A stretch of 64,000 bases of DNA, from assembly GCA_035368605.1 (NCBI GenBank), contig DAOSLF010000009.1, positions 7,079 to 71,078 on the forward strand, given 5' to 3'. Position 1 is the stretch's first letter. Every line of letters begins with the position of its first letter. Position numbers and translations under genes: made by a program. Source of the stretch: Candidatus Omnitrophota bacterium. Its GTDB lineage: Bacteria > Omnitrophota > Omnitrophia > Omnitrophales > Aquincolibacteriaceae. Under the pieces are notes generated by a model that was given only the letters and a program-made list of their open reading frames with translations, was not told the DNA's origin and did not search any database. This document shows, in pieces, positions 28,750 through 51,531 of the stretch.

Positions 28750-29265
28750 TTAGAAAATGTACGACAGAATCCCGCCGAGAATCGTCATGATGCAGAAAGC
28801 AAGAAGGCAAAGAAGCGGCCATCCCCTGACCGTTTCCGGAATCTTCGAGAAACGCACGGCATAGCGGAGCCCCGCAAACGCCGTCAAAAAGAGAAAAAGC
28901 CCGCCGACAACGGCTCCGGCCAGCGACAGCTGAAGGGCAAGGTCTTTTGCTTCCAGGACCGCAAGCGCGATCACGGCCGCCGTCAGGTGGAAAACCCCGT
29001 CCTTTTTCTGGTACCGCCCCGCCAAAAACGCGAAACACCAGAGGACCAGAAAATCCGCGCCCCGAACGGCTGCCGCCGTCCTGTCCCATAAAAGCAGCGC
29101 ATTGAATATTGTCAGGGACAGCGCCACGGTCAGGAAAAGGTCCAGCATCTCCCGCCAAACTCCGGAAAGCTCCGGGAAAACGCTTTCCCGAGGAAGAAAG
29201 GCATGCCTTCCGCGCACGGCAAAAAGGAAACCCGCTCCCGCGATGACCCAGATCCAGGCGATCAT
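28750..29265 (-). CDS. 6-TM membrane protein, possible divergent RnfA/RnfE-family subunit
   Basis: Start set at ATG 29265 with a GGAGG RBS; the ORF-track N-terminal 112 aa is rejected. Six hydrophobic helices. The C-terminal segment LRYAVRFSKIPETVRGWPLLCLLAFCIM resembles the RnfA/E tail (R...VP..RG..I.LI.AGLM). The conserved GLCP/TNC motifs are absent. Confidence 0.3.
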   Translation of the reverse strand: MIAWIWVIAGAGFLFAVRGRHAFLPRESVFPELSGVWREMLDLFLTVALSLTIFNALLLWDRTAAAVRGADFLVLWCFAFLAGRYQKKDGVFHLTAAVIALAVLEAKDLALQLSLAGAVVGGLFLFLTAFAGLRYAVRFSKIPETVRGWPLLCLLAFCIMTILGGILSYIF

Positions 29266-29804
29266 GAGGAAGCCTCCTTTTTGGCAGCGCCAAAATCCTT
29301 CCGCGGACTGCGAACCGAAGGGCGATTCCAGAGATAGACCGCGACAAACATCATCAGAAAGATCCATGCGGGGGTGACCACAAAACCTCTCGCCGGATCC
29401 AGGGCGCACGCGGAGGAAAGCGCTCCCGCAAAAACAAAAAAACCGGCGCCGGCGATCAAATGCCCGAAAAAATAGCCCGGTTGTTTTTTCGGGATCGCCG
29501 TGGTTTTGCGCGCGTTCAACACCCCCGAGGGGAATAACAGATAGACGCTGAGGACCCAGAAAGGCGCGAGGCCCGCCGCGCCCCAAAGAAGTTGCCCCCA
29601 CAACGCGAGCCAGAACGGGAAAACCTGCCTCGCCCCGGCTTCGGGGAAAAACCGCCGGAGCGGCCAGAAAAAAAGAAGGGACAGCCAGTACAGTCCGGCC
29701 ACCGCAGCCGCAAGACGCCAGGCGCTGACACCGGATCCCGCATACGCCATGAACGGCAGCCAGGCCAGGAGCATTCGCGAAAAAACACTATCGGGCATTT
29801 TCAT
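29262..29804 (-). CDS. 6-TM membrane protein of unknown family (Rnf-cluster associated)
   Basis: Start taken at MKMPDS (29804), which gives ATGA coupling to the upstream small ORF. Six predicted TM helices. No recognisable Rnf motifs. Confidence 0.3.
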   Translation of the reverse strand: MKMPDSVFSRMLLAWLPFMAYAGSGVSAWRLAAAVAGLYWLSLLFFWPLRRFFPEAGARQVFPFWLALWGQLLWGAAGLAPFWVLSVYLLFPSGVLNARKTTAIPKKQPGYFFGHLIAGAGFFVFAGALSSACALDPARGFVVTPAWIFLMMFVAVYLWNRPSVRSPRKDFGAAKKEASS

Positions 29805-29944
29805 CGGTAAAAGACCTTTCGGACCTTGACGGCAACCCCCGGGTTTTCCGTGAGCGTTCGCGCACTGAGGAATAGCAGGACCATCCCTGCCAGGAATACC
29901 ACGAGGAAACACCACCGGAGAACCGCCGACAGGATCTTCTTCAT
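29801..29944 (-). CDS. small single-TM protein (47 aa) at the RnfG position
   Basis: MKKILSAVLRWCFLVVFLAGMVLLFL... is coupled to both neighbours by ATGA overlaps. Too short to be an FMN-binding RnfG. Confidence 0.2.
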   Translation of the reverse strand: MKKILSAVLRWCFLVVFLAGMVLLFLSARTLTENPGVAVKVRKVFYR

Positions 29945-30768
29945 GATCCCTCCCCCGGCCGCGGGTGAAGCCGCGCGTTCATCCACGGGACCGTAAGGTT
30001 CGTGATCAGGATCGCGTATCCTGTCGCAGCGACAGCCGGATAATGAAGCCCCAGCCCTGCCGTCAGGAACGCCGCCAGTATCGCAAAAACGTTGGCCCCC
30101 TTCCGTGTCAACGGCAGCGTCACCGTATCGGTGATGAGAAAAAAGGCGGCGAACACCGTGATGCCGAAGCCCCTTTCCGGGTCTTTCATTTCTCCCAAGG
30201 CGAGCGCCGACATCCATGAAATGGCCAGATACCAGAGCGGCGTTTCAAAATAGATCAGCCTCCGGCTCAGGAAGATCGCCGCACCCGCGAGGATTCCGCC
30301 AAGGACAAGCGGTTCGTTCGCGTGACTGAAAAGTACAGGCGCCTCCAGCCGGTCCGGGAAGATCATATCGAGAAAAATCCGCGCAAAGACCGCCGGCTGA
30401 AAAAGGCGCCCGCCGAGGCCGCCGAAACATTCCTGGAGGATCACGATCGCGACAAAATCTCCCGTCAGGATCGCTGCCGTGGGACATCCCGGCGGAAGCA
30501 GGAATGCCAGCGTCAGTCCCGTGAGAAAGGCATCTCCGGTTGTAGTCGTTGTTTTTTTGCCCGAAGACCTCCCGCACAGCCATTCCATGGCGGCGGCCCC
30601 CGCAGATGAAGTCATGAGTATCCTGAAAAAATCCATCCCCCCGGCCAGGATTCCCGCGACCGCGACAGGAACGAGCGCGGCACATTTCCACCAGATCCGT
30701 TTCGTTGTGGAGTCGGAAGCCGCGATATGCGGCGGAGAAGCCCGGAGGCAGGAGATAGCGCGACTCAT
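29941..30768 (-). CDS. RnfD/NqrB family membrane subunit (short)
   Basis: TGDAFLTGLTLAFLLPPG matches the RnfD DGGAL.TGLLLAL.LPP motif. ITDTVTLPLTRKG matches the ATDPVT.P motif. 275 aa is shorter than canonical RnfD. Confidence 0.55.
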   Translation of the reverse strand: MSRAISCLRASPPHIAASDSTTKRIWWKCAALVPVAVAGILAGGMDFFRILMTSSAGAAAMEWLCGRSSGKKTTTTTGDAFLTGLTLAFLLPPGCPTAAILTGDFVAIVILQECFGGLGGRLFQPAVFARIFLDMIFPDRLEAPVLFSHANEPLVLGGILAGAAIFLSRRLIYFETPLWYLAISWMSALALGEMKDPERGFGITVFAAFFLITDTVTLPLTRKGANVFAILAAFLTAGLGLHYPAVAATGYAILITNLTVPWMNARLHPRPGEGS

Positions 30769-30769
30769 T

Positions 30770-32044
30770 TCACAGCCCTGCCTTTGCTTGATGGATGAGA
30801 TCGATCATGGGCCGTTTCGAAGGACAAACATAAGCGCAAATGCCGCATTCGATGCAATCCTTCACACGCCATTCCGCGGCGATCCCGAATTCGCCGGTCT
30901 CGGCGGCAAGCGTGATCGTGGCCGGGGAAAGAAAAACAGGGCAGGTGTCCACACACCGGTTACAGCGAATGCACGGTTCTTCGCGCCGCTCTCCCGCGAT
31001 CTCGGCGGGTAATGCCAGGATCGCGTTCGTCGCGGGCGTCACGACCGCCGTTCCGTCCCCCCGTTGGGCGGTCCCCCGCATTGGCCCTCCCGCAATCAGC
31101 CTCGCCGGTTCGCGCAAAAACCCCTTGCAGGCCCGGACCGCTTCCCGGAACGAGACTCCAAACGGCAGCCAGAGGTTCCTCGGTTCCGCCACACATTCAC
31201 CGGCCACGGTCACGATCCGCTCAAAGAAGGGTTTCCCGAAATAAACGGCTTCATAGGCGGCATGGGCCGTCGAGGCGTTGAGGATCCGGGAATCAAGAGA
31301 GAATTCCGCCGGCAGGAAATCTGCCGCTCCCATCGGGTAGATCGCGGGGACCTTGAAAACCTCGAAGGAGGCCGCCTTGAGAAGGTAAATCTTGCTTTTA
31401 ACAAGCTCGAAAAGTTCGCGTTCGGCATCCTCGATCAAAAAAACAACGCGTTCGGCGCCGGATGCTTTTCTTAAAAGCTCCGCTCCTTTAAGAACCTCGG
31501 GCAAGTGTCCCGTCATGAGGATGTTCTCGGACGAGACGTACGGCTCCGGTTCGCAACCATTGATGACGATCGTGCGCGGCGGTTTGCCCTCCGTTTCCAG
31601 GCGGCGGCGCAGGGGCTCGTTCGTTCCATCCGTCACCACGAGACCGAGCTCACAGAAAAGGTTCAAGAGGTCCGGACCGGAAAGAGATTCGGCGTCCGCG
31701 CGCGGGGTGACGAATTTGGGCGGAGCCTGTTTGAAATCGCTTTCCGCCGCGATCTCGATAAAGCTTTCCTCCCCGCCTTCCGGTAAGCTCCGTTTCCCGA
31801 CGGTCTCGACCTTCCCCGAAATACCGGAAAAGACGGGAATCCCTCTTGCGTCCGCCGGTATCGCGACCTTCCCACCGGCCTCGACCCTGTCGCCGGCCGC
31901 CACACAGGGCGAACACGGTATTCCCTCGCAGGAAACGGGCGTGATCCGGAGCCGCTTGATCAGATAGGGCCGCTTGAGGGTGTTAAGAAGGGCCGCCTCT
32001 TTCTTTCTTTCGAGACGGACCCCCTGTGTCCTTGCAGGAAGCAA
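30770..32044 (-). CDS. RnfC-like electron transport subunit with two 4Fe-4S motifs
   Basis: IVINGCEPEPY matches the RnfC INGAECEPY signature. Two ferredoxin-type motifs are present: CIRCNRCVDTCP and CIECGICAYVCP. Confidence 0.7.
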   Translation of the reverse strand: MLPARTQGVRLERKKEAALLNTLKRPYLIKRLRITPVSCEGIPCSPCVAAGDRVEAGGKVAIPADARGIPVFSGISGKVETVGKRSLPEGGEESFIEIAAESDFKQAPPKFVTPRADAESLSGPDLLNLFCELGLVVTDGTNEPLRRRLETEGKPPRTIVINGCEPEPYVSSENILMTGHLPEVLKGAELLRKASGAERVVFLIEDAERELFELVKSKIYLLKAASFEVFKVPAIYPMGAADFLPAEFSLDSRILNASTAHAAYEAVYFGKPFFERIVTVAGECVAEPRNLWLPFGVSFREAVRACKGFLREPARLIAGGPMRGTAQRGDGTAVVTPATNAILALPAEIAGERREEPCIRCNRCVDTCPVFLSPATITLAAETGEFGIAAEWRVKDCIECGICAYVCPSKRPMIDLIHQAKAGL

Positions 32045-32062: not shown

Positions 32063-32803
32063 TTAAGCTTTGGGAACGGCTTTCGAGAAGGCGTCGCCCA
32101 GAATCCTGTCGACCTGGATGCGCTCCCGGAACACGTCCTTGAGCCTGCCGAAACTGCAGCTTTCGACCTGCAGATCGTCAATATCGGGAAGGCTCCCAAG
32201 GATCGGAACACCCGAGAGGTCGTGGATCACTTTCGGATTCGTCAGTTCAGCCAGGGAATAATTGCTGACGGCGACCCGGTTGAAAATAATGCCTTTGATC
32301 TCCAGCCCGCGGATCATGGCGGCATCGACCGTCAGCAGCGCGTGATTGATCGCCCCGAGACCGGCGTGGCTCACAACGATCACCGGCAGTTTCATGTCGC
32401 GGATCAGGTTCGCGACATAGTAATCCTTTTTCAGCGGGACCATGATTCCGCCGATTCCCTCCACAATCATGTAATCGTAGTGTTTGCCGAGATCGCGGAA
32501 ACTTTTGAGGATGCGATCGACGTTCACTTCCTTCTTTTCGAGCATCGCGGCAACGTTCGGTGAAAGCGGGTTCCGGAAACGCGCGGGGCTGTGAAGCGGC
32601 GGGAACTGGCCTTCGGCCGCCTCCATCAGGAATGCCGCGTCGTGGGAGATGAGCCTTTCTTCCGCGCCGTAACAACCGGTCGCGACCGGCTTCATCACCC
32701 CGACCTTGATGCCGCGATCGCGGAGACAGAGCGCAAGCCCCGCCGAAACAATGGTCTTCCCGACTTCTGTATCCGTGCCTGTGATGAAAATACCGGCCTT
32801 CAT
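32063..32803 (-). CDS. bioD: dethiobiotin synthetase
   Basis: MKAGIFITGTDTEVGKT P-loop and BioD fold. Start trimmed to M13 of the ORF. Confidence 0.8.
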   Translation of the reverse strand: MKAGIFITGTDTEVGKTIVSAGLALCLRDRGIKVGVMKPVATGCYGAEERLISHDAAFLMEAAEGQFPPLHSPARFRNPLSPNVAAMLEKKEVNVDRILKSFRDLGKHYDYMIVEGIGGIMVPLKKDYYVANLIRDMKLPVIVVSHAGLGAINHALLTVDAAMIRGLEIKGIIFNRVAVSNYSLAELTNPKVIHDLSGVPILGSLPDIDDLQVESCSFGRLKDVFRERIQVDRILGDAFSKAVPKA

Positions 32804-32891
32804 GAGACCCTCGCGCCACGGGCCGCGGACAACGCACAACAGGGAAGTTTTCCCGGTGCGTGTTGTGTGTTGTGCGTTTTGCAGGCAATAA

Positions 32892-34262
32892 TCATTCCGT
32901 TCCTTCCTTTATAGACTCATACGCGATATCAAGCAATCTGTTCAGTTCTTTTTCCGTCATCGCAAGCGGAGGCATCAGGACAATCACCGGACCGAGCGGC
33001 CGCAGGATCGCGCCTTTTTTTCTTGCGAGCTCGATCACGCGCACCCCGATCTTCTCTTTCGGCGCGAACTCCGCCCTTGTTCGTTTGTCCCGAACCAATT
33101 CAATCCCGATCATGGTTCCGGCCTGCCGGATATCCCCCACCGCGTCGAGCTTGTAAAAATCCTGTAATCTTTTTCGCAAAAGCACGATCTTCGGCTGAAG
33201 TTTCTCGATCGTCCGGTCTTTTTTGAAAAGCTCGAGCGTCGCGAGCGCCGCCGCGCACGCAAGCGGGTTCGCCGTGTACGTGTGCCCGTGGAAAAAGGTC
33301 TTGAAGTCCTCGTATTGCCCGAGAAACGCTTCATAAACCCGTTCTGTTGTTAGGGTTGCGGCGAGCGGAAGATAGCCTCCCGTAAGCCCCTTGGCCACGG
33401 TCATGATGTCGGGAATCACGCCTTCGTGTTCAGCCGCAAACAGCTTCCCCGTTCGCCCGAAACCCGTCGCGACCTCGTCAAAGATCAAGAGCGTATTATA
33501 CTTTCGCGTCAGCTCCCTCGCACGGGAAATGTATCCCGCGGGCTGATCGATCATCCCCGCGGCACCCTGCATGAGCGGTTCCATCACAAGCGCGGCAACT
33601 TCCTCCGCGTTTTCGCGCAGAACCTTTTCCATCATCTCGAGGGATTCTTGCTTGACCTGTTCCGCGTCATCGCTCGCGGGCCACCGGTAGCGGTACGGAG
33701 AGGGAACCTCCAGGGTCTCGAAGAGAAGCGGCCGGTAGATTTGATGAAAAAGATCGATCCCGCCCACACTCACGGACCCGATCGTGTCGCCATGATAAGC
33801 GTTCGTGAGTTTGACGAACTTCTTTTTTTTCGGTTGTCCTCGCTGCTGCCAGTACTGATACGCCATTTTCAGCGCGATCTCGACCGATTCGGAACCGGAA
33901 TCCGAGTAGAACACCCGCGTCAGCGGACGGTCACCGCTCCCGGGCGACGGTTTCGGGGCGATCGCGATCAGCTTTTCCGACAGCTCGATCGCCGCCGGAT
34001 GTGAGAGACCGAGAAACGTCGTGTGGGCAATCTTTCCGAGCTGCCTCTTGACGGCCTTGTCGATCGCAGGGACCCGGTGCCCGAACACATTGCACCAGAG
34101 CGACGACACGCCGTCCAGATACCGCCGCCCATCCACATCGATCAGATAGCAGCCCGCTCCCTTTTCGATGACCGGGAATTCTTCCTCCTGCCAATCCCGC
34201 ATCTGGGTGAACGGATGCCAGATATGTTTTCGGTCGCTTGAGACAAGCTGTGCTTTATTCAT
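32892..34262 (-). CDS. bioA: adenosylmethionine-8-amino-7-oxononanoate aminotransferase
   Basis: Class III PLP aminotransferase with BioA-specific features (HIWHPFTQM, DEVATGFGRTGKLFA). Confidence 0.9.
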   Translation of the reverse strand: MNKAQLVSSDRKHIWHPFTQMRDWQEEEFPVIEKGAGCYLIDVDGRRYLDGVSSLWCNVFGHRVPAIDKAVKRQLGKIAHTTFLGLSHPAAIELSEKLIAIAPKPSPGSGDRPLTRVFYSDSGSESVEIALKMAYQYWQQRGQPKKKKFVKLTNAYHGDTIGSVSVGGIDLFHQIYRPLLFETLEVPSPYRYRWPASDDAEQVKQESLEMMEKVLRENAEEVAALVMEPLMQGAAGMIDQPAGYISRARELTRKYNTLLIFDEVATGFGRTGKLFAAEHEGVIPDIMTVAKGLTGGYLPLAATLTTERVYEAFLGQYEDFKTFFHGHTYTANPLACAAALATLELFKKDRTIEKLQPKIVLLRKRLQDFYKLDAVGDIRQAGTMIGIELVRDKRTRAEFAPKEKIGVRVIELARKKGAILRPLGPVIVLMPPLAMTEKELNRLLDIAYESIKEGTE

Positions 34263-34318
34263 AAATCAATCGGGTTATTTCCCGCCGGCGATCATGCCGG
34301 GGATCGATCCCGCATGGT

Positions 34319-34981
34319 TTACCGGTCATTTTTTTTCGCATACCCCACCGGCTGCGTCAGGATGATCTTCTGCTCCGGCCGAAGCCCCATCTCCTTCGCG
34401 AGACGCTCCCGGTCGATCCAGCCAAGAACCACGGTCGCGAGTCCCTCGGACGCGCAATAAAGATAGACGTTCTGGCTGATGAATCCCGTGTCCGCGGCGC
34501 TGTAGAATTTCGCGTCCTCTTCGGAACCGCCGCGAAATTTGCCGGGGTCCGCAACGAAAATCAGCCCTACCGGCGCTTCCCGGACAAAATCCTGCTTCCC
34601 GGCAAACGGCCGGATATCTTTCGCGAGCACCGGAATCAGCGCATGTTGTTCGGCATTATACAGGTAAAGTCCTTCTTTTTTGGCGACATAAATATCGATC
34701 TCGCGGGCATTATGCGCTGAGGGTACAGTCCGTCGTCCGTCCGGGCGGTTCACGCCGGCCGCGGCCCAGAGAAGGCCGGAAAGGACCTGAGGGGCCAGCT
34801 CTTCGCCGCTGAATTCCCGCGTGCTCTTCCGCTCCGCAAGCGCTTTCATCAGGGGTTGTCCGCCGTCTTTTTGCGGCGGCAGAAGCCGGAGAGGCTCCCG
34901 GGTCCCCGCCAAAAGGGGCATCGGCACCGCCAGGAGTACGAGAACCGTTAAAAAAAACGCCGCTGTTTTTTTGTCTTTCAT
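34319..34981 (-). CDS. nitroreductase-family protein with N-terminal signal/TM segment
   Basis: Start at MKDKKTAAFFLTVLVLL (ATG 34981); the ORF-track N-terminal 118 aa is rejected. Nitroreductase fold motifs (RKSTREF, VGYAK). Sits between bioF and bioA. Confidence 0.55.
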   Translation of the reverse strand: MKDKKTAAFFLTVLVLLAVPMPLLAGTREPLRLLPPQKDGGQPLMKALAERKSTREFSGEELAPQVLSGLLWAAAGVNRPDGRRTVPSAHNAREIDIYVAKKEGLYLYNAEQHALIPVLAKDIRPFAGKQDFVREAPVGLIFVADPGKFRGGSEEDAKFYSAADTGFISQNVYLYCASEGLATVVLGWIDRERLAKEMGLRPEQKIILTQPVGYAKKNDR

Positions 34982-35162
34982 ATTCCCTGCCTTTCCGCGG
35001 GGCTTCCGCCGAGTCACTTGCCGACAAAATAATATTGCACACTTCCCGGAAGGCACAGCAAAATATACGGAAGAAGCCACCGGGTCATCGTACCGCCTAC
35101 GGGGATTTTTAACCAGGAAAGAAGAACCGCCGCGGGGATCAGGCGCGGAATATCCGGCGCGA

Positions 35163-36359
35163 TCATGGATTCTTTCCATCCCGTTCTCCGAGGGCGGCAA
35201 ACGCGTCAATGAGCGCGTCGATCTCTGTGGCCGTGTGAGCCGCGCTGACCGTGACGCGAAGTCGGGCTTTTCCTTTGGGAACCGTCGGATACCGGACAGC
35301 GGGGATGTAAATGCCTTTTGAGAGAAGGAACTCAAAAGCGGCGAGCGCCTTCCCCTCGTCTCCCAGGACCACGGGCAGGATAGCGGAATCGGGCGAAGCC
35401 AGCGAAAAGCCGAGCCTTGTCAGTCCTTCATGAACCTTGCGGATATTCTCCCGGAGCTTTTCCCGGATCCCGGGCTCCTCCTCCATCACTGTAAAAGCTT
35501 CCGCGGCGGCAGCGCAAAGAACCGGCGGCAGTGCCGTCGCGAAAACAAAGGGCCGCGCGAAATTGATGAGATGATCGACCAGGACCTTGTCCGCCGCGAC
35601 AAAGCCCCCGAGCCCACCCGCCGCTTTTGACAGCGTTCCCATGACGAGGTCGACGCCTTCCGAAAAACCTTCCGTCGCCCCGCGGCCTTCTTTGCCGAGA
35701 ACGCCCGTCCCGTGCGCGTCGTCCACGACAAGCAAGGCGCCGTACTTTTTCCGGAGCCGGATTATCTGCCCGAGGTCCGCAAGGTCGCCGTCCATGCTGA
35801 AAACACTCTCCGTCACGAGAATCTTCCTGCGGCCAGGGCATTTCTTCAGAAGATTCTCGCACTTCGCGTAGTTCCTGTGGGGGAAAACCCGGAGCTCCGC
35901 TTTCGAAAGACGGGCGCCGTCCACAAGCGAGGCATGACAGAGTTTGTCCATAATGATCGTGTCGCCTTCTTCCGCGAAGGCGGTCAGGATACCGAGATTC
36001 GCGAGGAAACCGGAACCAAAGACAAGCGCATTTTCCTTGTTCTTGAACCGGGCGATTTTTTTTTCGAGCGCTTCGTGGACATCCGTGCTCCCCGAGATCA
36101 GGCGCGCGGCGCCGGCACCAACCCCATAGCGGTCGAGGGCTTTCTTCGCGGCGCAAACCACGCGGGGATGACGACTGAGTCCGAGATAATCATTCGAGCA
36201 GAAAAGAAGGAGCTTTCTTCCCTCCCAAACAGCCCGGGTCCCGCGGTTCTCTTCAAGCGCGCGAAGTCGGCGATAGAGGTTTTTTCCTTCCAAAGCCGTC
36301 AATCCGGCCCGAACCTCCTGATATATCGAAACATTCTCCAAGACAGAATCCTCCCGCAT
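35163..36359 (-). CDS. bioF: 8-amino-7-oxononanoate synthase
   Basis: Alpha-oxoamine synthase family (SNDYLGL, VDDAHGTGVLG, SFSKAAG-like TLSKAAGG lysine). Confidence 0.85.
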   Translation of the reverse strand: MREDSVLENVSIYQEVRAGLTALEGKNLYRRLRALEENRGTRAVWEGRKLLLFCSNDYLGLSRHPRVVCAAKKALDRYGVGAGAARLISGSTDVHEALEKKIARFKNKENALVFGSGFLANLGILTAFAEEGDTIIMDKLCHASLVDGARLSKAELRVFPHRNYAKCENLLKKCPGRRKILVTESVFSMDGDLADLGQIIRLRKKYGALLVVDDAHGTGVLGKEGRGATEGFSEGVDLVMGTLSKAAGGLGGFVAADKVLVDHLINFARPFVFATALPPVLCAAAAEAFTVMEEEPGIREKLRENIRKVHEGLTRLGFSLASPDSAILPVVLGDEGKALAAFEFLLSKGIYIPAVRYPTVPKGKARLRVTVSAAHTATEIDALIDAFAALGERDGKNP

Positions 36360-37567
36360 TAAACCTTTCGCAACAAAAGCGCCATTGCCTGGCCGCCGAA
36401 GCCCATGGAAACCTTGAGGGCCATCGCGATCTTTTTCTTGCGTGCCCGAAGCGGAGTGTAATCCAGGTCGCAGGCCTCGTCTTTTTCTTCCAGATTCAGG
36501 GTCGGCGGCACGAAGCCATCCCGCATCGCCACGAGCATCGCCGCGATCTCCACCGCCCCCGTTGCGCCGAGCATATGTCCCGTCGCGGCCTTGGTCGAGC
36601 TCATGGCCATACCATAGGCGGCTTCCCCGAAAGCCTCTTTGAGCTCAGCTGTTTCATAAACATCGCCGGGTTTCGTCCCCGTCCCGTGGAGATGGACATA
36701 ATCGATCTCGGCACAAGAAATGCCGGAGCGCGCCAACAACGTCTTCAAGGCCCTTGAAAGCGCGTGGTCGCCGTGATCGAACAGGATGGCGTGTTTTGAG
36801 TCCTGGGCGCATGCCGCATCGAGAACCTCTCCGTAGATCCGGATGCCGAGAGCCTTCGCGCTCTCAAGCGTTTCTAGAAAAAGGACCGCCGCGCCTTCGC
36901 CGACAAGAAACCCGTCCCTTCTTTTATCGAAAGGACGTATGTCCCGTTTCGCGAGCGCCTTCATGTTGTTGTACCCCGCCAGCAGGATCGGAACAATAGA
37001 GGCGTCCGAGGCTCCCGCGAGACAATAGTCGGCGTGGCCTTCCTGCACCATGCGAAACCCCGCGGTCACTGCCGCGACACCGGTCGCGCACGCCGCCACA
37101 TAACATTTCGCCGGGCCTTTGATCTTCATCCGCCGTGCGATCCACTGGTTTCCGGAATTCGGCATCGCGCTCGAATAGATGCGCGCGCCCAGAATCGCAC
37201 TTGGGTGCTTCAGGAACCGGTCCCGGAAGCTATCCAGCGTGTAAACCCCTCCCTTGGAAGAGCTGATTGAAAGACCGACCGCGTAGGGGTCAACCGCGCT
37301 CATATCGAATCGCGCGTCCTGGACGGCGGATTCAGCCGCCGCAACAGCGTACTGGATAAAGGGGTCCAGGATATGCGTGCCGTATTGGTGGGGGTTGAAA
37401 GCCTTGACGCGGAAAACGGGCGGAAACCGGCATCCGAAAACATCCGAAACGGACTCCGCCTCTTTTCCCGAAACCCCGTTCCGCAGGTTCGCGGAGAATT
37501 CTTCGAGCGTGTTTCCGATGGGCGTCAACACCCCCATCCCTGTCACGACAACCCGTCGGTTTCTCAT
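36359..37567 (-). CDS. beta-ketoacyl-ACP synthase I/II-like (FabF/FabB family) in biotin cluster
   Basis: RRVVVTGMGVLTPIGN N-terminus, active-site Cys (AACATG), and the HGTGT and GHMLGATG His motifs. Confidence 0.85.
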   Translation of the reverse strand: MRNRRVVVTGMGVLTPIGNTLEEFSANLRNGVSGKEAESVSDVFGCRFPPVFRVKAFNPHQYGTHILDPFIQYAVAAAESAVQDARFDMSAVDPYAVGLSISSSKGGVYTLDSFRDRFLKHPSAILGARIYSSAMPNSGNQWIARRMKIKGPAKCYVAACATGVAAVTAGFRMVQEGHADYCLAGASDASIVPILLAGYNNMKALAKRDIRPFDKRRDGFLVGEGAAVLFLETLESAKALGIRIYGEVLDAACAQDSKHAILFDHGDHALSRALKTLLARSGISCAEIDYVHLHGTGTKPGDVYETAELKEAFGEAAYGMAMSSTKAATGHMLGATGAVEIAAMLVAMRDGFVPPTLNLEEKDEACDLDYTPLRARKKKIAMALKVSMGFGGQAMALLLRKV

Positions 37568-37579
37568 GGAAATGGGCTA

Positions 37580-38308
37580 TTATAGCGGACGCGACTCAAA
37601 ATGAAACACCTGTCCCGTGACCCCGCGCACAAGACCGGAGGAGAGATAGACCAGAAAGCCGGCAACCTCCTCCGGGTCGGAGATTGTCCGGGTCGGGCTC
37701 CTCTCCAACGCGGCCTGAAACGTTTCTTCCGGAACGTTTTCGGTCATACGCGACTTCATGAAACCGGGGTTCACGGCGTTCACAAGAACCTGTTTTTTGC
37801 CCAGTTCGCGCGCAAGGACCTTGGTCATCGCGATCAGACCGCCCTTGGCGGCCGCATAGTTCGCCGCACCGGGAAGTCCCTCCAGTCCGGCGCGGCTTAC
37901 GATCATGAAAACCTTGGACGGTCTGACCTTCAATAGAAGAGGGAGCAGTTTTTGCGTGAGGTAAAAAGGCGCCTTGAGCCCGACTGCCAGAACACGGTCC
38001 CATTCGGCTTCGCTGAGACTCCCGAGGCGGGCATCCGCGGTCGCCGCGGCATTGTGGACCAGAACATCCAGGGTTTCGTGCGCGGCCAGGAACTCCTTCA
38101 GGAATACGTCCATTGACTCTGTGGACCCGAGATCCACGCGGTGTTTTCGGGCGCCCGTTTTTTCAAGGGCGAGGGCTCTCGCTTTCGATTCATGCCAGGT
38201 GAAATGGACTTCGGCGCCACGCGCGACGGCCTGCCGGACAAAGGCGTTTCCAAGTTCGCTCGTGCCGCCTGTGACCAGAATCTTTTTACGGGACAGGAGG
38301 AGGTTCAA
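37580..38308 (-). CDS. SDR-family oxidoreductase, FabG-like 3-oxoacyl-ACP reductase
   Basis: TGGTSELG Rossmann motif, NAA, and YAAAKGG catalytic Tyr/Lys. Confidence 0.8.
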   Translation of the reverse strand: MNLLLSRKKILVTGGTSELGNAFVRQAVARGAEVHFTWHESKARALALEKTGARKHRVDLGSTESMDVFLKEFLAAHETLDVLVHNAAATADARLGSLSEAEWDRVLAVGLKAPFYLTQKLLPLLLKVRPSKVFMIVSRAGLEGLPGAANYAAAKGGLIAMTKVLARELGKKQVLVNAVNPGFMKSRMTENVPEETFQAALERSPTRTISDPEEVAGFLVYLSSGLVRGVTGQVFHFESRPL

Positions 38309-38312
38309 ATGT

Positions 38313-39341
38313 TCACGCGGCCGTGACGGGCTCGCTTTTGACCGTATAACCAGCCCGCTTCAGGATCTTGAGGTCTTCGGCAACGGGATTCCCCCGTGTC
38401 GTCAAATAACCGCCCACGACGAGCCCGTTCGCCCCGCCCTTCAGGGCTTTTGCCTGATAAAAGGCCCCGAGGTTGAGCTCTTTGCCGCCCGCAAGCTTGA
38501 TGTTGGCGCGCGGATGGATGAAACGGTAGATCGCGATCATTTTCAGAGCGTCAACTGGATCGATCGGCGATTGCTTTTCGAGCGGTGTGCCGGGCCGGGG
38601 GTTCAGGATATTGACGGGAAGGCAGTGCGGTTCGTATTTTTTCAGCTCGAACGCGAGCCGGAGCCGGTCTTCCGTGCTTTCCCCAAGTCCGAAGATCCCT
38701 CCCGAACAGATCTCGACATCGTTCGTTTTGAGGAAGTCCAGGGTTTCCATGCGTTCGTCATAGGTATGTGTCGAAACGATCTTTGGGTAGAACTCGCGCG
38801 AGCATTGAAGATTATGATTGAAGCGCCGCATGCCGACCTTGCGAAGTTCCGCAATCTGCCCGGTCGTCAGGTTCCCGAGGGACCCGTCCAGGCAAAGATC
38901 CGTCTCCTCCGAAAGTATCCGGAACGTTTCCCGGACCTGTTCGAACTCCCGGTCGTTCAGAGTCTCCCCGCTCGTCACGATGCAAAAACTTTTGATACCG
39001 GCGGCTTCGCACTGTTGGGCGGCCTCGAGGATCTTTTCGGGGCTCATCAAGGGGTAGCGGCTCACGCCGGTCTCGTAGCGGGCGGATTGCGAGCAGAATT
39101 TGCAGTCTTCTCCGCAAAGATAGCTCTTGGCGTTCACGAGCGCGCATAGATCAGGCTTCGAAGATCGGAAATGAAGGGTCAGTTCATGGGCGGAAGCGAG
39201 AATCAGATCAATCTCCTCGGGAGAGGAGACCCTCGCGAGGCGAAGGGCTTCGTCGAACGTAACCTCGCCGCCGGCAAGGACCTTTTCTTTCATCTCCCGG
39301 ACGAAAGGAACGATTGACGGATCGATGGGATCGCGAAACAT
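38313..39341 (-). CDS. bioB: biotin synthase (radical SAM)
   Basis: CGEDCKFCSQS radical-SAM cluster motif and BioB C-terminal domain. Confidence 0.9.
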   Translation of the reverse strand: MFRDPIDPSIVPFVREMKEKVLAGGEVTFDEALRLARVSSPEEIDLILASAHELTLHFRSSKPDLCALVNAKSYLCGEDCKFCSQSARYETGVSRYPLMSPEKILEAAQQCEAAGIKSFCIVTSGETLNDREFEQVRETFRILSEETDLCLDGSLGNLTTGQIAELRKVGMRRFNHNLQCSREFYPKIVSTHTYDERMETLDFLKTNDVEICSGGIFGLGESTEDRLRLAFELKKYEPHCLPVNILNPRPGTPLEKQSPIDPVDALKMIAIYRFIHPRANIKLAGGKELNLGAFYQAKALKGGANGLVVGGYLTTRGNPVAEDLKILKRAGYTVKSEPVTAA

Positions 39342-39358: not shown

Positions 39359-40576
39359 TCAGGCCTGCGCGAAAACTTCACGCGCCACGATACCGACGAC
39401 TCCGAGCGCTACGGCATTCTCGCCGAACGCGGACGGGATCACTTTGACCTGTGTGGCCGCTTCCTCGACCGCCCATTCCTTGACCGTGCTCTTGACAGCG
39501 TCGAGGAGGGCCGCGCCGCAGTCTTCAATGCCGCCGCCGATCACGACAACTTCGGGGTTGAGAAGATTCACGATGAACGCGATCTTCCTTCCGAGATCCT
39601 GTCCCGCCTGCTCAGCGACCTTGATCGCCAGCGCGTCCTTTTCCTTCACCGCGCGAACAATGTCCTTAAAACTGATCTTGTCGAGGTCGCCTTTAACGTA
39701 ATCCTTGATCAGGGAGGGCTCGCCCTTATCGAGACGCTCGCGCGCGTGACGGACCATACCGATGTCCATCTCCCAGCGTCCGAGTTGTGTCGCGATCTTT
39801 TGAGTGAAGTCCCTGGTCGCGCGCATGCTCGTGATCCCAAGCTCTCCCGCCGCGCCCGTCGCGCCGCGGTAGATCTCTTCATTGATCAAAATGCCGCAAC
39901 CAACGCCTGAGAACATATAAACCATATGCCGGACATCGCGGTCGAGCCCGAGCCACTTTTCGCCGAGCACGGCCGCATTCGCGTCATTCTCGACGAACGC
40001 GGGAATGCCGAGCTTCTTTTCGAAGGTGTCCTTGATGGAGGTGCAAATCGAGATGTCCTTGTCGCCGAGGCTTTGCGGCCAGCGGATCGTGCGACCGCGC
40101 TCATCAATGATGCCGGGGACACCCACCCCGACCCCGACAATCCTGGATTTATCGATCTCCGCTTTTTGGATAATCTCCGCGGCCAGGTCCACCATCTGCT
40201 GGATGACCTGTTCCGAGTTATCCGGCAACCTCTCCCTTTTAAGCTCCGTCACCACGTTGATCTCGAGATCAACGAGCACGCCGACCATGCTCATCATATT
40301 GAGACCGACGCCGACGATATAACCGGCCTTGGGATTGAGCTCGACCAGGACGGGTTTACGCCCGCCCGTCGACTCATCCAGATCGCCCTCCACCACGAGC
40401 CCCTTCTTGATGTAATGGTTCACGTAGTTGGAGACCGTGACGATGTTTAATTCTGTGAGCTTGGAAATATCGGTCCGGGAGATCGGTCCGTTCTTGCGCA
40501 CCACCTCGAGAATCGCGAGATTTTTTCGTTCCTTGTCCGTCAGAACCCGGTCTTTGAGCATTTGCCTGATTATCAT
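39359..40576 (-). CDS. ROK family transcriptional regulator (NagC/XylR-like)
   Basis: N-terminal wHTH (ILEVVRKNGPISRTDISKLTELNIVTVSNYV) fused to a ROK sugar-kinase-like domain (VGVGVGVPGIID, ENDANAAVLGE). Confidence 0.8.
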   Translation of the reverse strand: MIIRQMLKDRVLTDKERKNLAILEVVRKNGPISRTDISKLTELNIVTVSNYVNHYIKKGLVVEGDLDESTGGRKPVLVELNPKAGYIVGVGLNMMSMVGVLVDLEINVVTELKRERLPDNSEQVIQQMVDLAAEIIQKAEIDKSRIVGVGVGVPGIIDERGRTIRWPQSLGDKDISICTSIKDTFEKKLGIPAFVENDANAAVLGEKWLGLDRDVRHMVYMFSGVGCGILINEEIYRGATGAAGELGITSMRATRDFTQKIATQLGRWEMDIGMVRHARERLDKGEPSLIKDYVKGDLDKISFKDIVRAVKEKDALAIKVAEQAGQDLGRKIAFIVNLLNPEVVVIGGGIEDCGAALLDAVKSTVKEWAVEEAATQVKVIPSAFGENAVALGVVGIVAREVFAQA

Positions 40577-49646: not shown

Positions 49647-50618
49647 CTAACCTCGCGGGAGATTGATTTTTTGGAGAATGCGGTCCAGGTCATCAAGGGA
49701 CGCGTAATGTATTTCAATGCGCCCTTCCCTCTGATTTTTTTTGGGATATATTTTTGTTTGAGCGCCGAGATGGTGGACAAGACGATTCTCAAGATCGACG
49801 ATTTCGGGACTCAAATGACGGGCTGTTTTTGCTTTTCTCTTGTGAGCATTGCTTCGGTTCACAATTAGCTCAACCTGGCGGACCGAAAGGTTTTCCTCCA
49901 CAATACGTTTTGCCATCTGGCGTTGATGCTCCGGCGTCAGTAAACCCAGAAGCGCCCGCGCGTGACCAGCTGTGATCTGTCCGGCCGCAAGAAAGGTTTT
50001 GACTTCCTCGGGCAGACGGAGAAGGCGGATCGTGTTTGTGACGGTGGTCCTGTTTTTGCCGACGCGTTTCGCGACTTCGTCCTGCGAAATAGCTCTCTGC
50101 TCCATAATCCGCTGATAAGCCTCGGCTTCCTCCAGCGGGTTCAGATCCTGCCGCTGAATGTTTTCGATCAGCGCCCATTCGAGAAAATCCTCCGAAGCCA
50201 CATCTTTAACAACGGCGGGCACTTCCGTCAACGCGCAGGCTTTGGCGGCGCGAAGGCGGCGCTCACCGCATATAAGCCGGTATTGATCCGGTCCGACCAT
50301 TTTTACGATCACCGGCTGCAGTATCCCTTTCTCACGAATGGAGCTTGCCAGTTCATCAATGGCAACGGGATCGAAATGTTGACGCGGCTGATTTTCGTTC
50401 GGCACGATGTGGTCGATGGGGATCAGCCTGAATGCGCCCTGCGGCTTTGCGGGCGCGGACACCGCAGCCTGACCAGACTGTGTTGCTGCAGGCGCCGAGG
50501 ACACGCTCATGGCCGGTATCGCTGCAACCGAAGATGTTTTTTTTGTTTCCGCCTGCTCCCTGAGAAAACCATCCGGGATCAGTGCGCTTAATCCTTTGCC
50601 GAGGGCTTTTTTCGTCAT
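49647..50618 (-). CDS. parB: chromosome partitioning protein ParB (Spo0J)
   Basis: ParB N-terminal box (GERRLRAAK, QPVIVK) and HTH. Confidence 0.9.
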   Translation of the reverse strand: MTKKALGKGLSALIPDGFLREQAETKKTSSVAAIPAMSVSSAPAATQSGQAAVSAPAKPQGAFRLIPIDHIVPNENQPRQHFDPVAIDELASSIREKGILQPVIVKMVGPDQYRLICGERRLRAAKACALTEVPAVVKDVASEDFLEWALIENIQRQDLNPLEEAEAYQRIMEQRAISQDEVAKRVGKNRTTVTNTIRLLRLPEEVKTFLAAGQITAGHARALLGLLTPEHQRQMAKRIVEENLSVRQVELIVNRSNAHKRKAKTARHLSPEIVDLENRLVHHLGAQTKIYPKKNQREGRIEIHYASLDDLDRILQKINLPRG

Positions 50619-50650
50619 AGAAGAGCTCCTTTCGCGATCCTTCCGAGGAT

Positions 50651-51517: not shown

Positions 51518-51531
51518 GAGAACCCTCCGCA

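What the first reader, a model, noticed from the sequence alone, without database searches (positions are those of the whole stretch)
32063..39341. Biotin cluster with embedded FabF-like and FabG-like genes and a nitroreductase, but no bioC/bioH/bioG/bioW/bioI/bioZ
The minus-strand order is bioB, SDR (FabG-like), KAS I/II (FabF-like), bioF, nitroreductase-family protein, bioA, bioD.

The ring-assembly genes are complete. No known pimeloyl-thioester-supplying gene is present, and no ACP gene sits in the cluster. A dedicated condensing enzyme plus ketoreductase inside the bio operon suggests a non-BioC/BioH route to the pimelate moiety. A similar fabF/fabG-containing bio locus has been noted in Desulfovibrio and remains biochemically unresolved.

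The signal-anchored nitroreductase between bioF and bioA has no obvious role in biotin synthesis.
Basis: partly seen in the sequence, partly recalled or inferred. Interest (0 to 1): 0.55.

Follow-up and report, generated by a model that had tools for sequence, protein, structure and literature searches.

The report
Biotin operon with its own condensing enzyme
This Omnitrophota bacterium's biotin operon carries a private pair of fatty-acid-type enzymes, and the condensing enzyme's substrate pocket is rebuilt around an invariant lysine, so this two-gene module is a compact and testable candidate for making biotin's pimelate precursor without the usual BioC/BioH methyl-ester step.

Summary
The tightly packed minus-strand operon reads bioB, SDR, KAS, bioF, nitroreductase, bioA, bioD. 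The 64-kb window holds no ACP, FabZ, BioC, BioH, BioG, BioW, BioI or BioZ.

The DNA belongs to a Candidatus Omnitrophota MAG. The KAS and SDR are not housekeeping FabF and FabG:
- Both score below the NCBIfam equivalog cut-offs.
- The KAS clade separates from housekeeping FabF in 199 of 200 bootstraps.
- Eight of nine lineages with readable context place the KAS next to bioB and/or bioF.
- Every member replaces the FabF Ile108/Phe202 "back gate" with Lys/Tyr and Gly198 with Met/Leu/Ile/Phe. None of 79 random metagenomic FabFs does this.

This points to a short, cationic pocket for omega-carboxy acyl primers.

The nitroreductase carries a Sec signal peptide, as do 119 of 120 homologues. It is missing from sister clusters and also occurs outside bio loci, so it is probably a passenger.

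A Desulfovibrio-type bio cluster with FAS-like genes is already published, with genetic but no biochemical evidence. This locus is a minimal variant in a new phylum, without ACP or dehydratase.

Two things could not be tested: whether bioC/bioH are absent genome-wide, and whether the KAS is orthologous to DVU2563.

The parts
38313..39341 (-). bioB, biotin synthase (342 aa)
   Evidence: TIGR00433, 348 bits against a cut-off of 225. Radical_SAM and BATS domains.
37580..38308 (-). bio-specific SDR, the putative 3-oxo-(omega-carboxy)acyl-ACP reductase (242 aa, TTG start)
   Evidence: FabG TIGR01830 scores 172.9 bits, below the cut-off of 297.75. The catalytic Ser/Tyr/Lys are kept. Arg follows the catalytic Ser in 6 of 7 bio-linked SDRs. 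A C-terminal ...ESR... motif replaces the FabG ...NGGM.... Bio-linked SDRs score 197-318 bits to it, against 83-117 bits for housekeeping FabG.
36359..37567 (-). K-type KAS: a FabF-like condensing enzyme with a remodelled acyl pocket (402 aa)
   Evidence: FabF TIGR03150 scores 353.5 bits, below the cut-off of 493.75. Cys160/His294/His331/Lys326/Phe390 correspond to FabF C163/H303/H340/K335/F400. The signature is G105S, G107S, I108K, A193S, G198L, F202Y and T270I.
37247..37264 (-). SSSKGG motif. The Lys105 codon at 37253-37255 replaces the FabF back-gate residue Ile108.
   Evidence: Translation. Lys is invariant in all 119 close-clade sequences aligned (window included), 60/60 further family members and all 10 divergent representatives. 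None of 79 control FabFs has it.
35163..36359 (-). bioF, 8-amino-7-oxononanoate synthase (398 aa). Its start overlaps the KAS stop.
   Evidence: TIGR00858, 454 bits against a cut-off of 426. TAATG junction.
34319..34981 (-). Exported nitroreductase-fold flavoprotein (220 aa), a lineage-specific insert in the slot after bioF
   Evidence: PF00881, 99.8 bits; SagB TIGR03605 scores 50.6 bits, below its cut-off of 78.4. PDB relatives are 3hj9 (E 7e-45), 8cqs and 3hoi. The N-terminus MKDKKTAAFFLTVLVLLAVPMPLLAG is signal-peptide-like, as in 119 of 120 homologues. The gene is absent from L014, L015, L016, L018 and L101; L020, a 4.5-kb contig with bioB-KAS only, has no bioF slot to judge. It occurs outside bio loci in L010 and L011.
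32892..34262 (-). bioA, DAPA aminotransferase (456 aa)
   Evidence: TIGR00508, 547 bits against a cut-off of 405.
32063..32803 (-). bioD, dethiobiotin synthase (246 aa from the ATG at 32803)
   Evidence: TIGR00347, 169 bits against a cut-off of 83. The public annotation uses the same start.
39359..40576 (-). ROK-family regulator directly upstream, possibly co-transcribed. It is probably part of the neighbouring sugar regulon rather than of biotin synthesis.
   Evidence: PF00480 and an HTH domain. The gap to bioB is 17 nt. The only sigma-70-like sites on this strand lie upstream of ROK. The adjacency is kept in L012 and L016.

Best explanation
The operon encodes complete ring assembly (BioF, BioA, BioD, BioB) plus a two-enzyme module for the pimelate moiety.

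Shown: the KAS is an active Cys-His-His decarboxylating condensing enzyme of the FabF fold. Its long-chain acyl pocket is closed and made cationic and polar. The Ile108/Phe202 back gate becomes Lys/Tyr, Gly198 becomes Leu/Met, and Gly107 and Ala193 become Ser.

Inferred:
- The KAS accepts short acyl primers that keep a free omega-carboxylate: malonyl-ACP, then glutaryl-ACP. It condenses them with malonyl-ACP to give 3-oxoglutaryl-ACP and then 3-oxopimeloyl-ACP.
- The dedicated SDR reduces these 3-oxo intermediates. It has Arg next to its catalytic Ser.
- The housekeeping ACP, FabZ and enoyl reductase do the rest. No ACP or dehydratase gene is ever in these clusters.
- Pimeloyl-ACP then goes to BioF, whose start codon overlaps the KAS stop codon.
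- No methyl-ester disguise (BioC) or esterase (BioH) would be needed.

The nitroreductase is a Sec-exported periplasmic flavoprotein. It landed in a variable slot after bioF and is most likely not part of the pathway.
For: Dedicated module:
- bioB-SDR-KAS-bioF is conserved in the window and in L012, L014, L015, L016, L018 and L101, at 40-77% KAS identity. L020 has bioB-KAS alone.
- The K-type clade separates from housekeeping FabF in 199 of 200 NJ bootstraps, with the signature columns removed.

Pocket:
- Lys at FabF position 108 is invariant in all 119 close-clade sequences, in 60/60 further members and in all 10 divergent representatives.
- Position 202 is Tyr in all 119 close-clade sequences and in 57 of the 60 further members, with Phe in three.
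- Position 198 is bulky (Met, Leu, Ile, Phe or Val) in all but one sequence, which has Ala.
- The 38 named or unnamed housekeeping FabFs and the 79 control FabFs have Ile/Val/Leu/Met at 108, Phe at 202, and small residues (Gly, Ala, Ser, Thr or Cys) at 198.
- The controls sit next to ACP, FabG or FabZ genes and never next to bio genes.

Literature:
- Ile108 and Phe202 form the back gate of the FabF acyl pocket, and changing it alters chain-length specificity (bioRxiv 10.1101/2021.02.13.431092).
- FabF Ile108/Gly198 and FabB Gly107/Met197 steer the acyl chain (PMC4606726). The K-type enzyme fills both positions.

Precedents:
- In D. vulgaris a bio-cluster KAS, KR, ACP and FabZ-like genes are required for biotin synthesis. 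bioC and bioH are absent there, and the authors predicted less hydrophobic active sites (PMC10102598).
- The BioZ route shows that FAS II can finish a free-carboxyl C7 intermediate (PMC7645780).

Nitroreductase.
Against: - The rest of the genome could not be searched, so a BioC/BioH pair or an analogue elsewhere is not excluded.
- One Omnitrophota genome with bio genes carries a bioC KO in a published table.
- The distant sister locus L018 has two class-I methyltransferases right after bioF, and there the SDR has Gln instead of Arg after the catalytic Ser.
- No 3-D coordinates were available. The claim that Lys108 reaches the omega-carboxylate rests on alignment to FabF and on published FabF structures.
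- A Lys at the back gate fits a C5 (glutaryl) acyl-enzyme better than a C3 (malonyl) one, so the first round is the weaker inference.
- Whether housekeeping FabZ and the enoyl reductase accept C5 free-carboxyl intermediates is unknown. E. coli's do not, which is why BioC exists.
- Nitroreductase-like genes recur in Desulfobacterota bio clusters, and DVU1220 is required in D. vulgaris. A role for the nitroreductase is therefore not excluded.
Confidence: 0.5

Rival explanations
1. BioZ-like single condensation. The K-type KAS takes only a glutaryl thioester made elsewhere, for example by amino-acid or glutaconate metabolism. One condensation with malonyl-ACP gives 3-oxopimeloyl-ACP. The SDR and housekeeping FAS II finish the job, and no malonyl-primed first round occurs.
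For: - A Lys/Tyr pair at the back gate sits roughly where the omega-carboxylate of a C5 acyl-enzyme would lie (inference).
- Only a condensing enzyme, or that enzyme plus a KR, is dedicated. L020 has bioB-KAS alone.
- This mirrors alpha-proteobacteria, where BioZ alone suffices and FabG, FabZ and FabI complete the round (PMC7645780).
- BioZ anchors the C5 carboxyl with polar side chains (PMC12625853).
Against: - No CaiB-like CoA-transferase and no glutaryl-CoA source is in any of the clusters.
- FabF-type enzymes normally take acyl-ACP primers, not acyl-CoA.
- The D. vulgaris model favours two rounds from malonyl-ACP.
Confidence: 0.2
2. The route is still methyl-ester dependent. A BioC-type methyltransferase and an esterase are encoded elsewhere in the genome, and the KAS/SDR pair is specialised for the methyl-ester intermediates because the organism's housekeeping KAS and KR reject them.
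For: - L018 has methyltransferases immediately after bioF. The first one's best NCBIfam hit is BioC, at 68 bits.
- Non-homologous BioC replacements (BioT, Tam-like) exist (PMC12704756).
- A bioC KO is reported in one Omnitrophota genome that has bioF, bioA, bioD and bioB.
Against: - The L018 methyltransferase is far below the BioC cut-off of 185 bits. It scores equally to CpaM, and its full-length PDB relative is MM_2633 (3dtn, 115 bits).
- The slot it occupies also holds GGDEF, RRM, efflux or nitroreductase genes in other lineages, so it looks like an insertion hot spot.
- No methyltransferase or hydrolase was seen in seven other K-type loci or in the 64-kb window.
- An invariant buried Lys is unnecessary for a neutral ester.
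Confidence: 0.17
3. The KAS and SDR are the organism's ordinary FabF and FabG, placed by chance in the bio operon.
For: - Their best profile matches are FabF and FabG.
- No other fab gene lies in the 64-kb window.
Against: - Both score well below the equivalog cut-offs.
- They form a separate clade.
- The pocket is blocked at both chain-steering positions.
- All 79 control FabFs and those of L001, L003 and L017 have the canonical pocket, and most sit next to ACP, FabG or FabZ genes.
- An Omnitrophota genome without bioF or bioB still has fabF, fabG and acpP KOs.
Confidence: 0.03
4. The nitroreductase is a working part of the pathway, for example the missing enoyl-ACP reductase, as was suggested for nitroreductase-like genes in Desulfobacterota bio clusters.
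For: - It lies between bioF and bioA here and directly after bioF in L012.
- Five further contigs appear to carry both a K-type KAS and this nitroreductase, judged by identical longest-contig lengths.
- DVU1220 is required for biotin synthesis, and Syntrophobacter and Desulfobacter clusters contain nitroreductase-like genes.
Against: - 119 of 120 homologues have an N-terminal signal-peptide-like hydrophobic segment, and the 40 N-termini inspected mostly end in an AxA-type cleavage motif, so the mature protein should be periplasmic, away from ACP chemistry.
- The PDB relatives align only from about residue 19 to 32 of the query onward.
- It is absent from L014, L015, L016, L018 and L101.
- Homologues about 60% identical sit in unrelated contexts in an Elusimicrobia MAG and in a 5.1-Mb genome.
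Confidence: 0.1

Closest known systems
Desulfovibrio-type extended bio cluster (D. vulgaris DVU2558-DVU2565; Rodionov 2004, Lin & Cronan 2011, Trotter et al. 2023, PMC10102598)
   Same: - FAS-like genes are embedded among bioB, bioF, bioA and bioD.
- The KR and KAS lie upstream of bioF, going by the locus-tag order in the paper.
- The organisms are anaerobes.
- The proposed route to pimeloyl-ACP is free of methyl esters.
- Nitroreductase-like genes are sometimes present.
- The biochemistry is unresolved.
   Different: - This locus has no dedicated ACP (DVU2562) and no FabZ-like dehydratases (DVU2560, DORF42491).
- The phylum is Omnitrophota, with a candidate division TA06 relative. The published cases are Desulfobacterota and Chrysiogenetes.
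- No Desulfobacterota protein appeared among the best 120 hits of either KAS search. Orthology to DVU2563 is therefore untested, and independent recruitment is possible.
- The nitroreductase here is exported, whereas DVU1220 is an FMN/[4Fe-4S] protein.
BioZ route of alpha-proteobacteria (PMC7645780, PMC8024396, PMC12625853)
   Same: - A dedicated condensing enzyme accepts a primer with a free omega-carboxylate.
- Housekeeping FAS II finishes the round.
- Polar side chains anchor the carboxyl group.
   Different: - BioZ is a KAS III (FabH-type, Cys-His-Asn) enzyme that uses glutaryl-CoA from lysine catabolism.
- The enzyme here is KAS II (FabF-type, Cys-His-His), has a partner KR, and has no CaiB-like gene nearby.
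Housekeeping FabF/FabG of type II fatty-acid synthesis (E. coli FabF, PDB 6okg/2gfw; B. subtilis FabF, 4ls5)
   Same: - The fold and catalytic residues are the same, as are the Phe400 gate and GFGG loop.
- Identity is about 35-42%.
- The SDR keeps the Ser-Tyr-Lys catalytic residues.
   Different: - The back gate is Ile108/Phe202 in FabF and Lys/Tyr here; Gly198 becomes Leu/Met and Thr270 becomes Ile/Leu/Val.
- The genes sit in a bio operon, not a fab cluster.
- Both score below the equivalog cut-offs.
BioC-BioH pathway (E. coli)
   Same: The logic is the same: two FAS-like elongation rounds from a malonyl thioester to pimeloyl-ACP, handed to BioF.
   Different: - No BioC or BioH is in the window.
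- Instead of disguising the carboxylate so that ordinary enzymes accept it, the condensing and reducing enzymes themselves appear adapted to the charged substrate.

Membership tests
FabF, housekeeping beta-ketoacyl-ACP synthase II (TIGR03150 equivalog) | Thiolase-fold KS N- and C-terminal domains with the Cys163/His303/His340 triad, Lys335 and the Phe400 gate | tested here: met
   PF00109 and PF02801 match. The residues align to the verified E. coli FabF sequence.
FabF, housekeeping beta-ketoacyl-ACP synthase II (TIGR03150 equivalog) | Score at or above the curated equivalog cut-off | tested here: not met
   353.5 bits against a cut-off of 493.75.
FabF, housekeeping beta-ketoacyl-ACP synthase II (TIGR03150 equivalog) | Hydrophobic long-chain acyl pocket with an Ile108/Phe202 back gate and a small residue at position 198 | tested here: not met
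   The window protein has Lys, Tyr and Leu at these positions. Lys108 is invariant across the clade and Tyr202 nearly so, whereas 0 of 79 control FabFs have either change.
FabF, housekeeping beta-ketoacyl-ACP synthase II (TIGR03150 equivalog) | Location in a fab cluster with acpP, fabG, fabD or fabZ | tested here: not met
   The gene lies between an SDR and bioF. No ACP or FabZ is in the window or in any sister locus.
FabG, 3-oxoacyl-ACP reductase (TIGR01830 equivalog) | Classical SDR with the Ser138/Tyr151/Lys155 catalytic residues | tested here: met
   Alignment to E. coli FabG.
FabG, 3-oxoacyl-ACP reductase (TIGR01830 equivalog) | Score at or above the curated equivalog cut-off | tested here: not met
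   172.9 bits against a cut-off of 297.75. Bio-linked SDRs form their own score class.
Desulfovibrio-type extended bio cluster | KAS and KR paralogues embedded among bioB, bioF, bioA and bioD, with the KAS next to bioF | tested here: met
   compared with the DVU2558-2565 description.
Desulfovibrio-type extended bio cluster | Dedicated ACP (DVU2562-like) in the cluster | tested here: not met
   No ACP-like ORF of 40 aa or more is in the window or in 8 sister loci.
Desulfovibrio-type extended bio cluster | FabZ-like dehydratase genes in the cluster | tested here: not met
   The FabZ probe found hits only in the housekeeping loci L001, L003 and L017.
Desulfovibrio-type extended bio cluster | Sequence orthology of the KAS and KR to DVU2563 and DVU2561 | not tested
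   The D. vulgaris sequences were not obtainable with the tools. No Desulfobacterota-named protein was in the best 120 hits.
Desulfovibrio-type extended bio cluster | Genome lacks bioC and bioH | not testable with these tools
   Only 64 kb of this genome is available.
BioC-BioH pathway | BioC O-methyltransferase (TIGR02072) and a pimeloyl-ACP methyl-ester esterase | tested here: inconclusive
   Both are absent from the window, but the rest of the genome was not seen. The L018 methyltransferase scores 68 bits against a cut-off of 185.
BioZ | KAS III (FabH-like) fold with a Cys-His-Asn triad | tested here: not met
   The enzyme is KAS I/II type (PF00109/PF02801) with Cys-His-His.
Nitroreductase superfamily (PF00881); SagB-type dehydrogenase (TIGR03605) | Nitroreductase fold above the Pfam gathering score; SagB domain above its cut-off | tested here: inconclusive
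   PF00881 scores 99.8 bits against a gathering score of 23.5, so that is met. TIGR03605 scores 50.6 bits against a cut-off of 78.4, so that is not met. The closest solved structures (3hj9, 8cqs, 3hoi) carry only generic names (oxidoreductase, nitroreductase-like protein, FMN-dependent nitroreductase), and no functional study of them was found.

The most novel reading that the evidence does not exclude
The Lys108-type KAS and its Arg-bearing KR form a self-sufficient two-gene adaptor. It lets an ordinary type II fatty-acid synthase build pimeloyl-ACP from unmethylated malonyl-ACP, using the host's own ACP, dehydratase and enoyl reductase. This would be the minimal form of the long-unresolved Desulfovibrio route, or an independent invention of it. 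It would be widespread in Omnitrophota and neighbouring candidate phyla, and the Lys/Tyr back gate would be the structural solution to the charged-carboxylate problem that BioC solves by methylation.
Probability: 0.35. Interest if true: 0.75.

Novelty: new variant of a known kind. Interest (0 to 1): 0.6.

Why it matters
How bacteria make the pimelate moiety is the variable and still incomplete part of biotin biosynthesis. A December 2025 paper counts three previously characterized routes and adds BioE. The FabF/FabG-containing bio clusters first noticed in Desulfovibrio in 2004 have genetic support only.

This locus shows that the idea extends to a whole uncultivated phylum in a stripped-down two-gene form. 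It also supplies a concrete, falsifiable structural rationale: an invariant Lys/Tyr replaces the FabF back gate.

A two-gene module that borrows host ACP, FabZ and FabI is far easier to test in E. coli delta-bioC/delta-bioH than the six-gene Desulfovibrio cluster.

It also corrects metabolic reconstructions that score Omnitrophota biotin synthesis as 'partial'. In addition, it gives an annotation rule, SSSKGG plus Tyr202, that separates these enzymes from FabF.

Tried and rejected
- **Metagenome-contig scan with a K-type alignment.** The derived patterns were generic KS motifs. Seventy-nine of the 80 loci were ordinary FabFs. I reused them as a negative control.
- **Representative-library search.** Giant PKS proteins swamped the list, and only about a dozen single-domain hits were usable.
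- **Finding DVU2563, DVU2561 or the Syntrophobacter nitroreductase.** None could be retrieved. The supplements of PMC10102598 held no sequences.
- **Published Omnitrophota KO table for bioC or fabF copy number.** The counts are binary and the stored file is cut after about three genomes, so it gives only anecdotal information.
- **L018 methyltransferase as BioC.** Rejected as a confident call. It scores 68 bits against a cut-off of 185, and its full-length PDB match is MM_2633.
- **50-aa ORF annotated between bioF and the nitroreductase.** It has no family hit, and L012 has no room for it.
- **Rfam scan of the window.** No riboswitch or other RNA family was found.
- **Promoter and terminator scan.** It gave nothing above the shuffled expectation inside the operon.
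- **Search for papers on PDB 8cqs.** The results were irrelevant.
- **L019.** This is a K-type KAS with no bio gene visible. The downstream fragment is not BioF, and the contig ends there, so it stays unexplained.

Full report
**What is there**

The four ring-assembly enzymes pass the NCBIfam equivalog cut-offs:

| Gene | Score (bits) | Cut-off (bits) |
|---|---|---|
| bioB | 348 | 225 |
| bioF | 454 | 426 |
| bioA | 547 | 405 |
| bioD | 169 | 83 |

The two fatty-acid-like genes do not pass theirs. The KAS at 36359-37567 scores 353.5 bits against a FabF cut-off of 493.75. The SDR at 37580-38308 scores 172.9 bits against a FabG cut-off of 297.75.

The nitroreductase is best read from the ATG at 34981, which gives 220 aa. 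This is also how the public annotation reads it.

The genes are packed like an operon. The gaps are 4 nt and 12 nt, and the KAS stop overlaps the bioF start as TAATG. A ROK regulator ends 17 nt before bioB. No gap could hold an ACP or a dehydratase gene.

phmmer probes with E. coli AcpP, FabZ, BioC and BioH found nothing in the 64 kb. A Pfam sweep of 38 further window ORFs (four small or terminal ORFs were left unscanned) found none of the following:
- a BioC-like methyltransferase (only PrmC and TrmD were found);
- an alpha/beta-hydrolase;
- a P450;
- a KAS III;
- BioW;
- an ACP.

**Whose DNA it is**

The KAS protein occurs with 100% identity on several public contigs, including NCBI GCA_029553765.1, annotated as Candidatus Omnitrophota. 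The gene order there is identical.

More than a hundred 90%-identity clusters are 56-77% identical to the KAS. Every one that carries a name is Omnitrophota. A profile of more divergent members also reached a candidate division TA06 protein.

**The KAS/SDR pair is a dedicated bio module**

I read the neighbourhoods of progressively more distant KAS relatives.

| Locus | KAS identity | Gene order |
|---|---|---|
| L012 | 77% | ROK-bioB-SDR-KAS-bioF-nitroreductase-[efflux genes]-bioA-bioD |
| L014 | 59% | bioB-SDR-KAS-bioF-bioA-bioD |
| L015 | 56% | Same core, with unrelated genes inserted between SDR and KAS and between bioF and bioA |
| L016 | 49% | ROK-bioB-SDR-KAS-bioF-bioA-bioD |
| L101 | 43% | SDR-KAS-bioF-bioA |
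| L018 | 42% | bioB-SDR-KAS-bioF-[two methyltransferases, RRM]-bioA-bioD |
| L020 | 43% | bioB-KAS |
| L019 | 44% | No bio neighbour visible before its contig ends |

FabF-like genes at a similar 35-42% identity look different. Those in L001, L003 and L017 sit in ordinary fab clusters with fabH, fabK, fabD, fabG, accB and fabZ.

Bio-linked SDRs score 197-318 bits to the window SDR. Housekeeping FabGs score 83-117 bits.

In a neighbour-joining analysis of 27 bio-type and 24 housekeeping KAS sequences, the two groups separated in 199 of 200 bootstrap replicates. The diagnostic columns had been removed first.

**The pocket signature**

I aligned the family to E. coli FabF. I had typed that reference sequence from memory, and I confirmed it as 100% identical to PDB 6okg_A.

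The catalytic Cys163, His303, His340, Lys335 and the Phe400 gate are all kept. A set of pocket residues is changed, and most of the changes are fixed across the family:

| FabF position | FabF residue | Bio-type residue |
|---|---|---|
| 105 | Gly | Ser |
| 107 | Gly | Ser |
| 108 | Ile | Lys |
| 193 | Ala | Ser |
| 198 | Gly | Met, Leu, Ile or Phe |
| 202 | Phe | Tyr |
| 270 | Thr | Mostly Ile, Leu or Val |

Lys108 is present in all 119 close-clade sequences aligned (118 homologues plus the window protein), in all 10 divergent representatives, and in all 60 further family members found with the divergent profile.

The 38 housekeeping FabFs in that same list have Gly107, Ile/Val108 and Phe202. 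So do 79 FabF-like genes pulled at random from metagenomes. None of these has Lys108, and none sits beside a bio gene.

In the window the motif SSSKGG is encoded at 37247-37264.

Published FabF structures identify Ile108 and Phe202 as the "back gate" of the acyl-binding pocket. Changing the gate residue alters chain-length specificity (bioRxiv 10.1101/2021.02.13.431092).

FabF (Ile108/Gly198) and FabB (Gly107/Met197) each keep one of the two chain-steering positions small, so that the chain can pass (PMC4606726). The bio-type enzyme fills both positions and places an amine and a hydroxyl at the gate.

My inference is that the pocket is short, polar and cationic. That suits an acyl-enzyme whose far end is a carboxylate, and it does not suit fatty-acid elongation.

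The partner SDR keeps Ser/Tyr/Lys. It has Arg immediately after the catalytic Ser in 6 of 7 lineages, and a conserved C-terminal Arg motif replaces the FabG NGGM. This may serve the same purpose, but the sample is small and I could not check the geometry.

**How it most likely works**

Established: E. coli hides the malonyl carboxylate as a methyl ester (BioC), lets FAS II run two rounds, and removes the ester (BioH).

Established: alpha-proteobacteria instead use BioZ to condense free-carboxyl glutaryl-CoA with malonyl-ACP. FabG, FabZ and FabI then finish the round.

Published genetics: in D. vulgaris, a bio-cluster KAS, KR, ACP and two FabZ-like genes are each needed for biotin synthesis. 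bioC and bioH are absent there. The authors proposed elongation of unmethylated malonyl-ACP by enzymes with less hydrophobic active sites (PMC10102598).

For this locus I propose the following:
1. The K-type KAS condenses free-carboxyl primers with malonyl-ACP. Glutaryl-ACP is the most secure case, and malonyl-ACP in a first round is probable.
2. The dedicated SDR reduces the 3-oxo products.
3. The housekeeping ACP, FabZ and enoyl reductase complete each round.
4. BioF, which is translationally coupled to the KAS, takes the pimeloyl-ACP.

What is shown is the gene content, the conservation, the intact catalytic residues and the pocket substitutions. What is inferred is the substrate identity, the use of host ACP, dehydratase and enoyl reductase, and the independence from methylation.

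**The nitroreductase**

It belongs to a very large family. The search returned 7,782 hits with E-values of 1e-5 or better. Solved relatives are 3hj9, 8cqs and B. fragilis BF3017 (3hoi).

Of the 120 best homologues, 119 carry an N-terminal hydrophobic segment, and the N-termini I inspected have a basic n-region and mostly an AxA-type cleavage motif. Few have a twin arginine. The PDB relatives align only from about residue 19 to 32 onward. The mature protein should therefore be periplasmic, away from ACP-bound chemistry.

It is present after bioF in the window and in L012.

It is absent from L014, L015, L016, L018 and L101. L020, a 4.5-kb contig carrying only bioB-KAS, has no bioF slot to judge.

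Homologues about 60% identical lie in unrelated contexts in an Elusimicrobia MAG and in a 5.1-Mb genome.

The slot it occupies holds GGDEF, RRM, methyltransferase or efflux genes in other lineages. I read it as a passenger.

There is one caveat. Nitroreductase-like genes recur in Desulfobacterota bio clusters, and DVU1220 is required in D. vulgaris. I could not compare those sequences.

**What remains open**

- *bioC/bioH elsewhere in the genome.* I could not search the rest of the genome. A published KO table shows one Omnitrophota genome with bioF, bioA, bioD and bioB plus a bioC KO. It also shows one genome with fabF, fabG and acpP but no bio genes. The first is a warning. The second shows that the phylum has ordinary FAS II independent of the bio cluster.
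- *The L018 methyltransferase.* Its best NCBIfam hit is BioC, but at 68 bits against a cut-off of 185. It ties with CpaM, and its full-length structural relative is MM_2633. It is weak evidence for a methyl-ester route.
- *Orthology to the Desulfovibrio genes.* I could not obtain the D. vulgaris sequences. No Desulfobacterota protein appeared in the top lists of either KAS search. This is compatible with independent recruitment but does not prove it.

**Comparison and novelty**

The kind of system is published: FAS-like genes inside a bio operon, taken to supply pimeloyl-ACP without BioC/BioH. It is still biochemically unresolved, and a December 2025 paper does not list it among characterized routes.

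Four things are new here:
- The host phylum is new. Two Omnitrophota genomics papers list only bioF, bioA, bioD and bioB, and one of them calls the pathway partial.
- The architecture is minimal, with no ACP and no dehydratase.
- The KAS forms a sharply defined family.
- The Lys/Tyr back-gate signature turns a general suggestion into a testable mechanism.

I rate it a new variant of a known kind, with interest 0.6.

Noticed in passing
window 49647-62000: This is the chromosomal replication-origin region. parB and parA, mnmG and yidC lie on the minus strand; dnaA (56497-57846), dnaN and gyrB lie on the plus strand. Gene orientation flips, GC skew turns from negative to positive, and GC content drops to 0.43 at about 56-58 kb. 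The bio operon therefore lies about 20 kb from oriC.
   Followed up: partly
L018:12370-14349: A distant sister bio cluster has two class-I SAM methyltransferases and an RRM-domain protein in the slot after bioF. The first methyltransferase's best NCBIfam hit is BioC (68 bits, cut-off 185), but its full-length PDB match is MM_2633 (3dtn). In the same locus the SDR has Gln instead of the otherwise conserved Arg after the catalytic Ser.
   Followed up: partly
L014:1828-8178 and L015:1352-5450: In two Omnitrophota lineages a block of sulfate-assimilation genes lies directly upstream of bioB. It contains APS kinase, PAPS reductase, ATP sulfurylase, two PALP enzymes, a ThiS-like sulfur carrier and a small NIL-domain ORF. 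This hints at a link between sulfur supply and biotin synthase.
   Followed up: no
L020:117-2316: A groundwater contig has bioB directly followed by a K-type KAS, with no SDR between them. The condensing enzyme is therefore the most persistent partner of the bio genes.
   Followed up: partly
L019:10001-11149: This is a K-type KAS (Lys108, Tyr202) with no bio gene visible. It is preceded by RND efflux genes and an unknown 405-aa protein. The downstream fragment is not BioF, and the contig ends there.
   Followed up: partly
L012:10850-15118: An outer-membrane factor and MacA/MacB-type efflux genes are inserted between the nitroreductase and bioA. This shows that the region after bioF is an insertion hot spot.
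   Followed up: no
window 35014-35166 (-): Public annotations call a 50-aa ORF in the 181-nt spacer between bioF and the nitroreductase. It has no family hit, and L012 has no room for it (6-nt gap). It is probably spurious.
   Followed up: partly
window 28750-32044 (-) and L012, L014-L016: rnfC and rnfD, followed by small membrane ORFs, come directly after bioD. The adjacency is conserved across Omnitrophota lineages, and in some a DsbA/thioredoxin-repeat gene is inserted. In the same way, a ROK regulator and GH94/glycoamylase sugar genes lie upstream of bioB.
   Followed up: no
window 19-1137 (-): This is accA, the carboxyltransferase alpha subunit of acetyl-CoA carboxylase. The organism therefore makes malonyl-CoA and has a biotin-dependent enzyme to serve.
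   Followed up: no
window 11715-13352 (-), 4276-5067 (+), 55615-56361 (+): These are sizeable ORFs (545, 263 and 248 aa) with no Pfam match. The 248-aa ORF sits right at the putative origin, next to dnaA.
   Followed up: no
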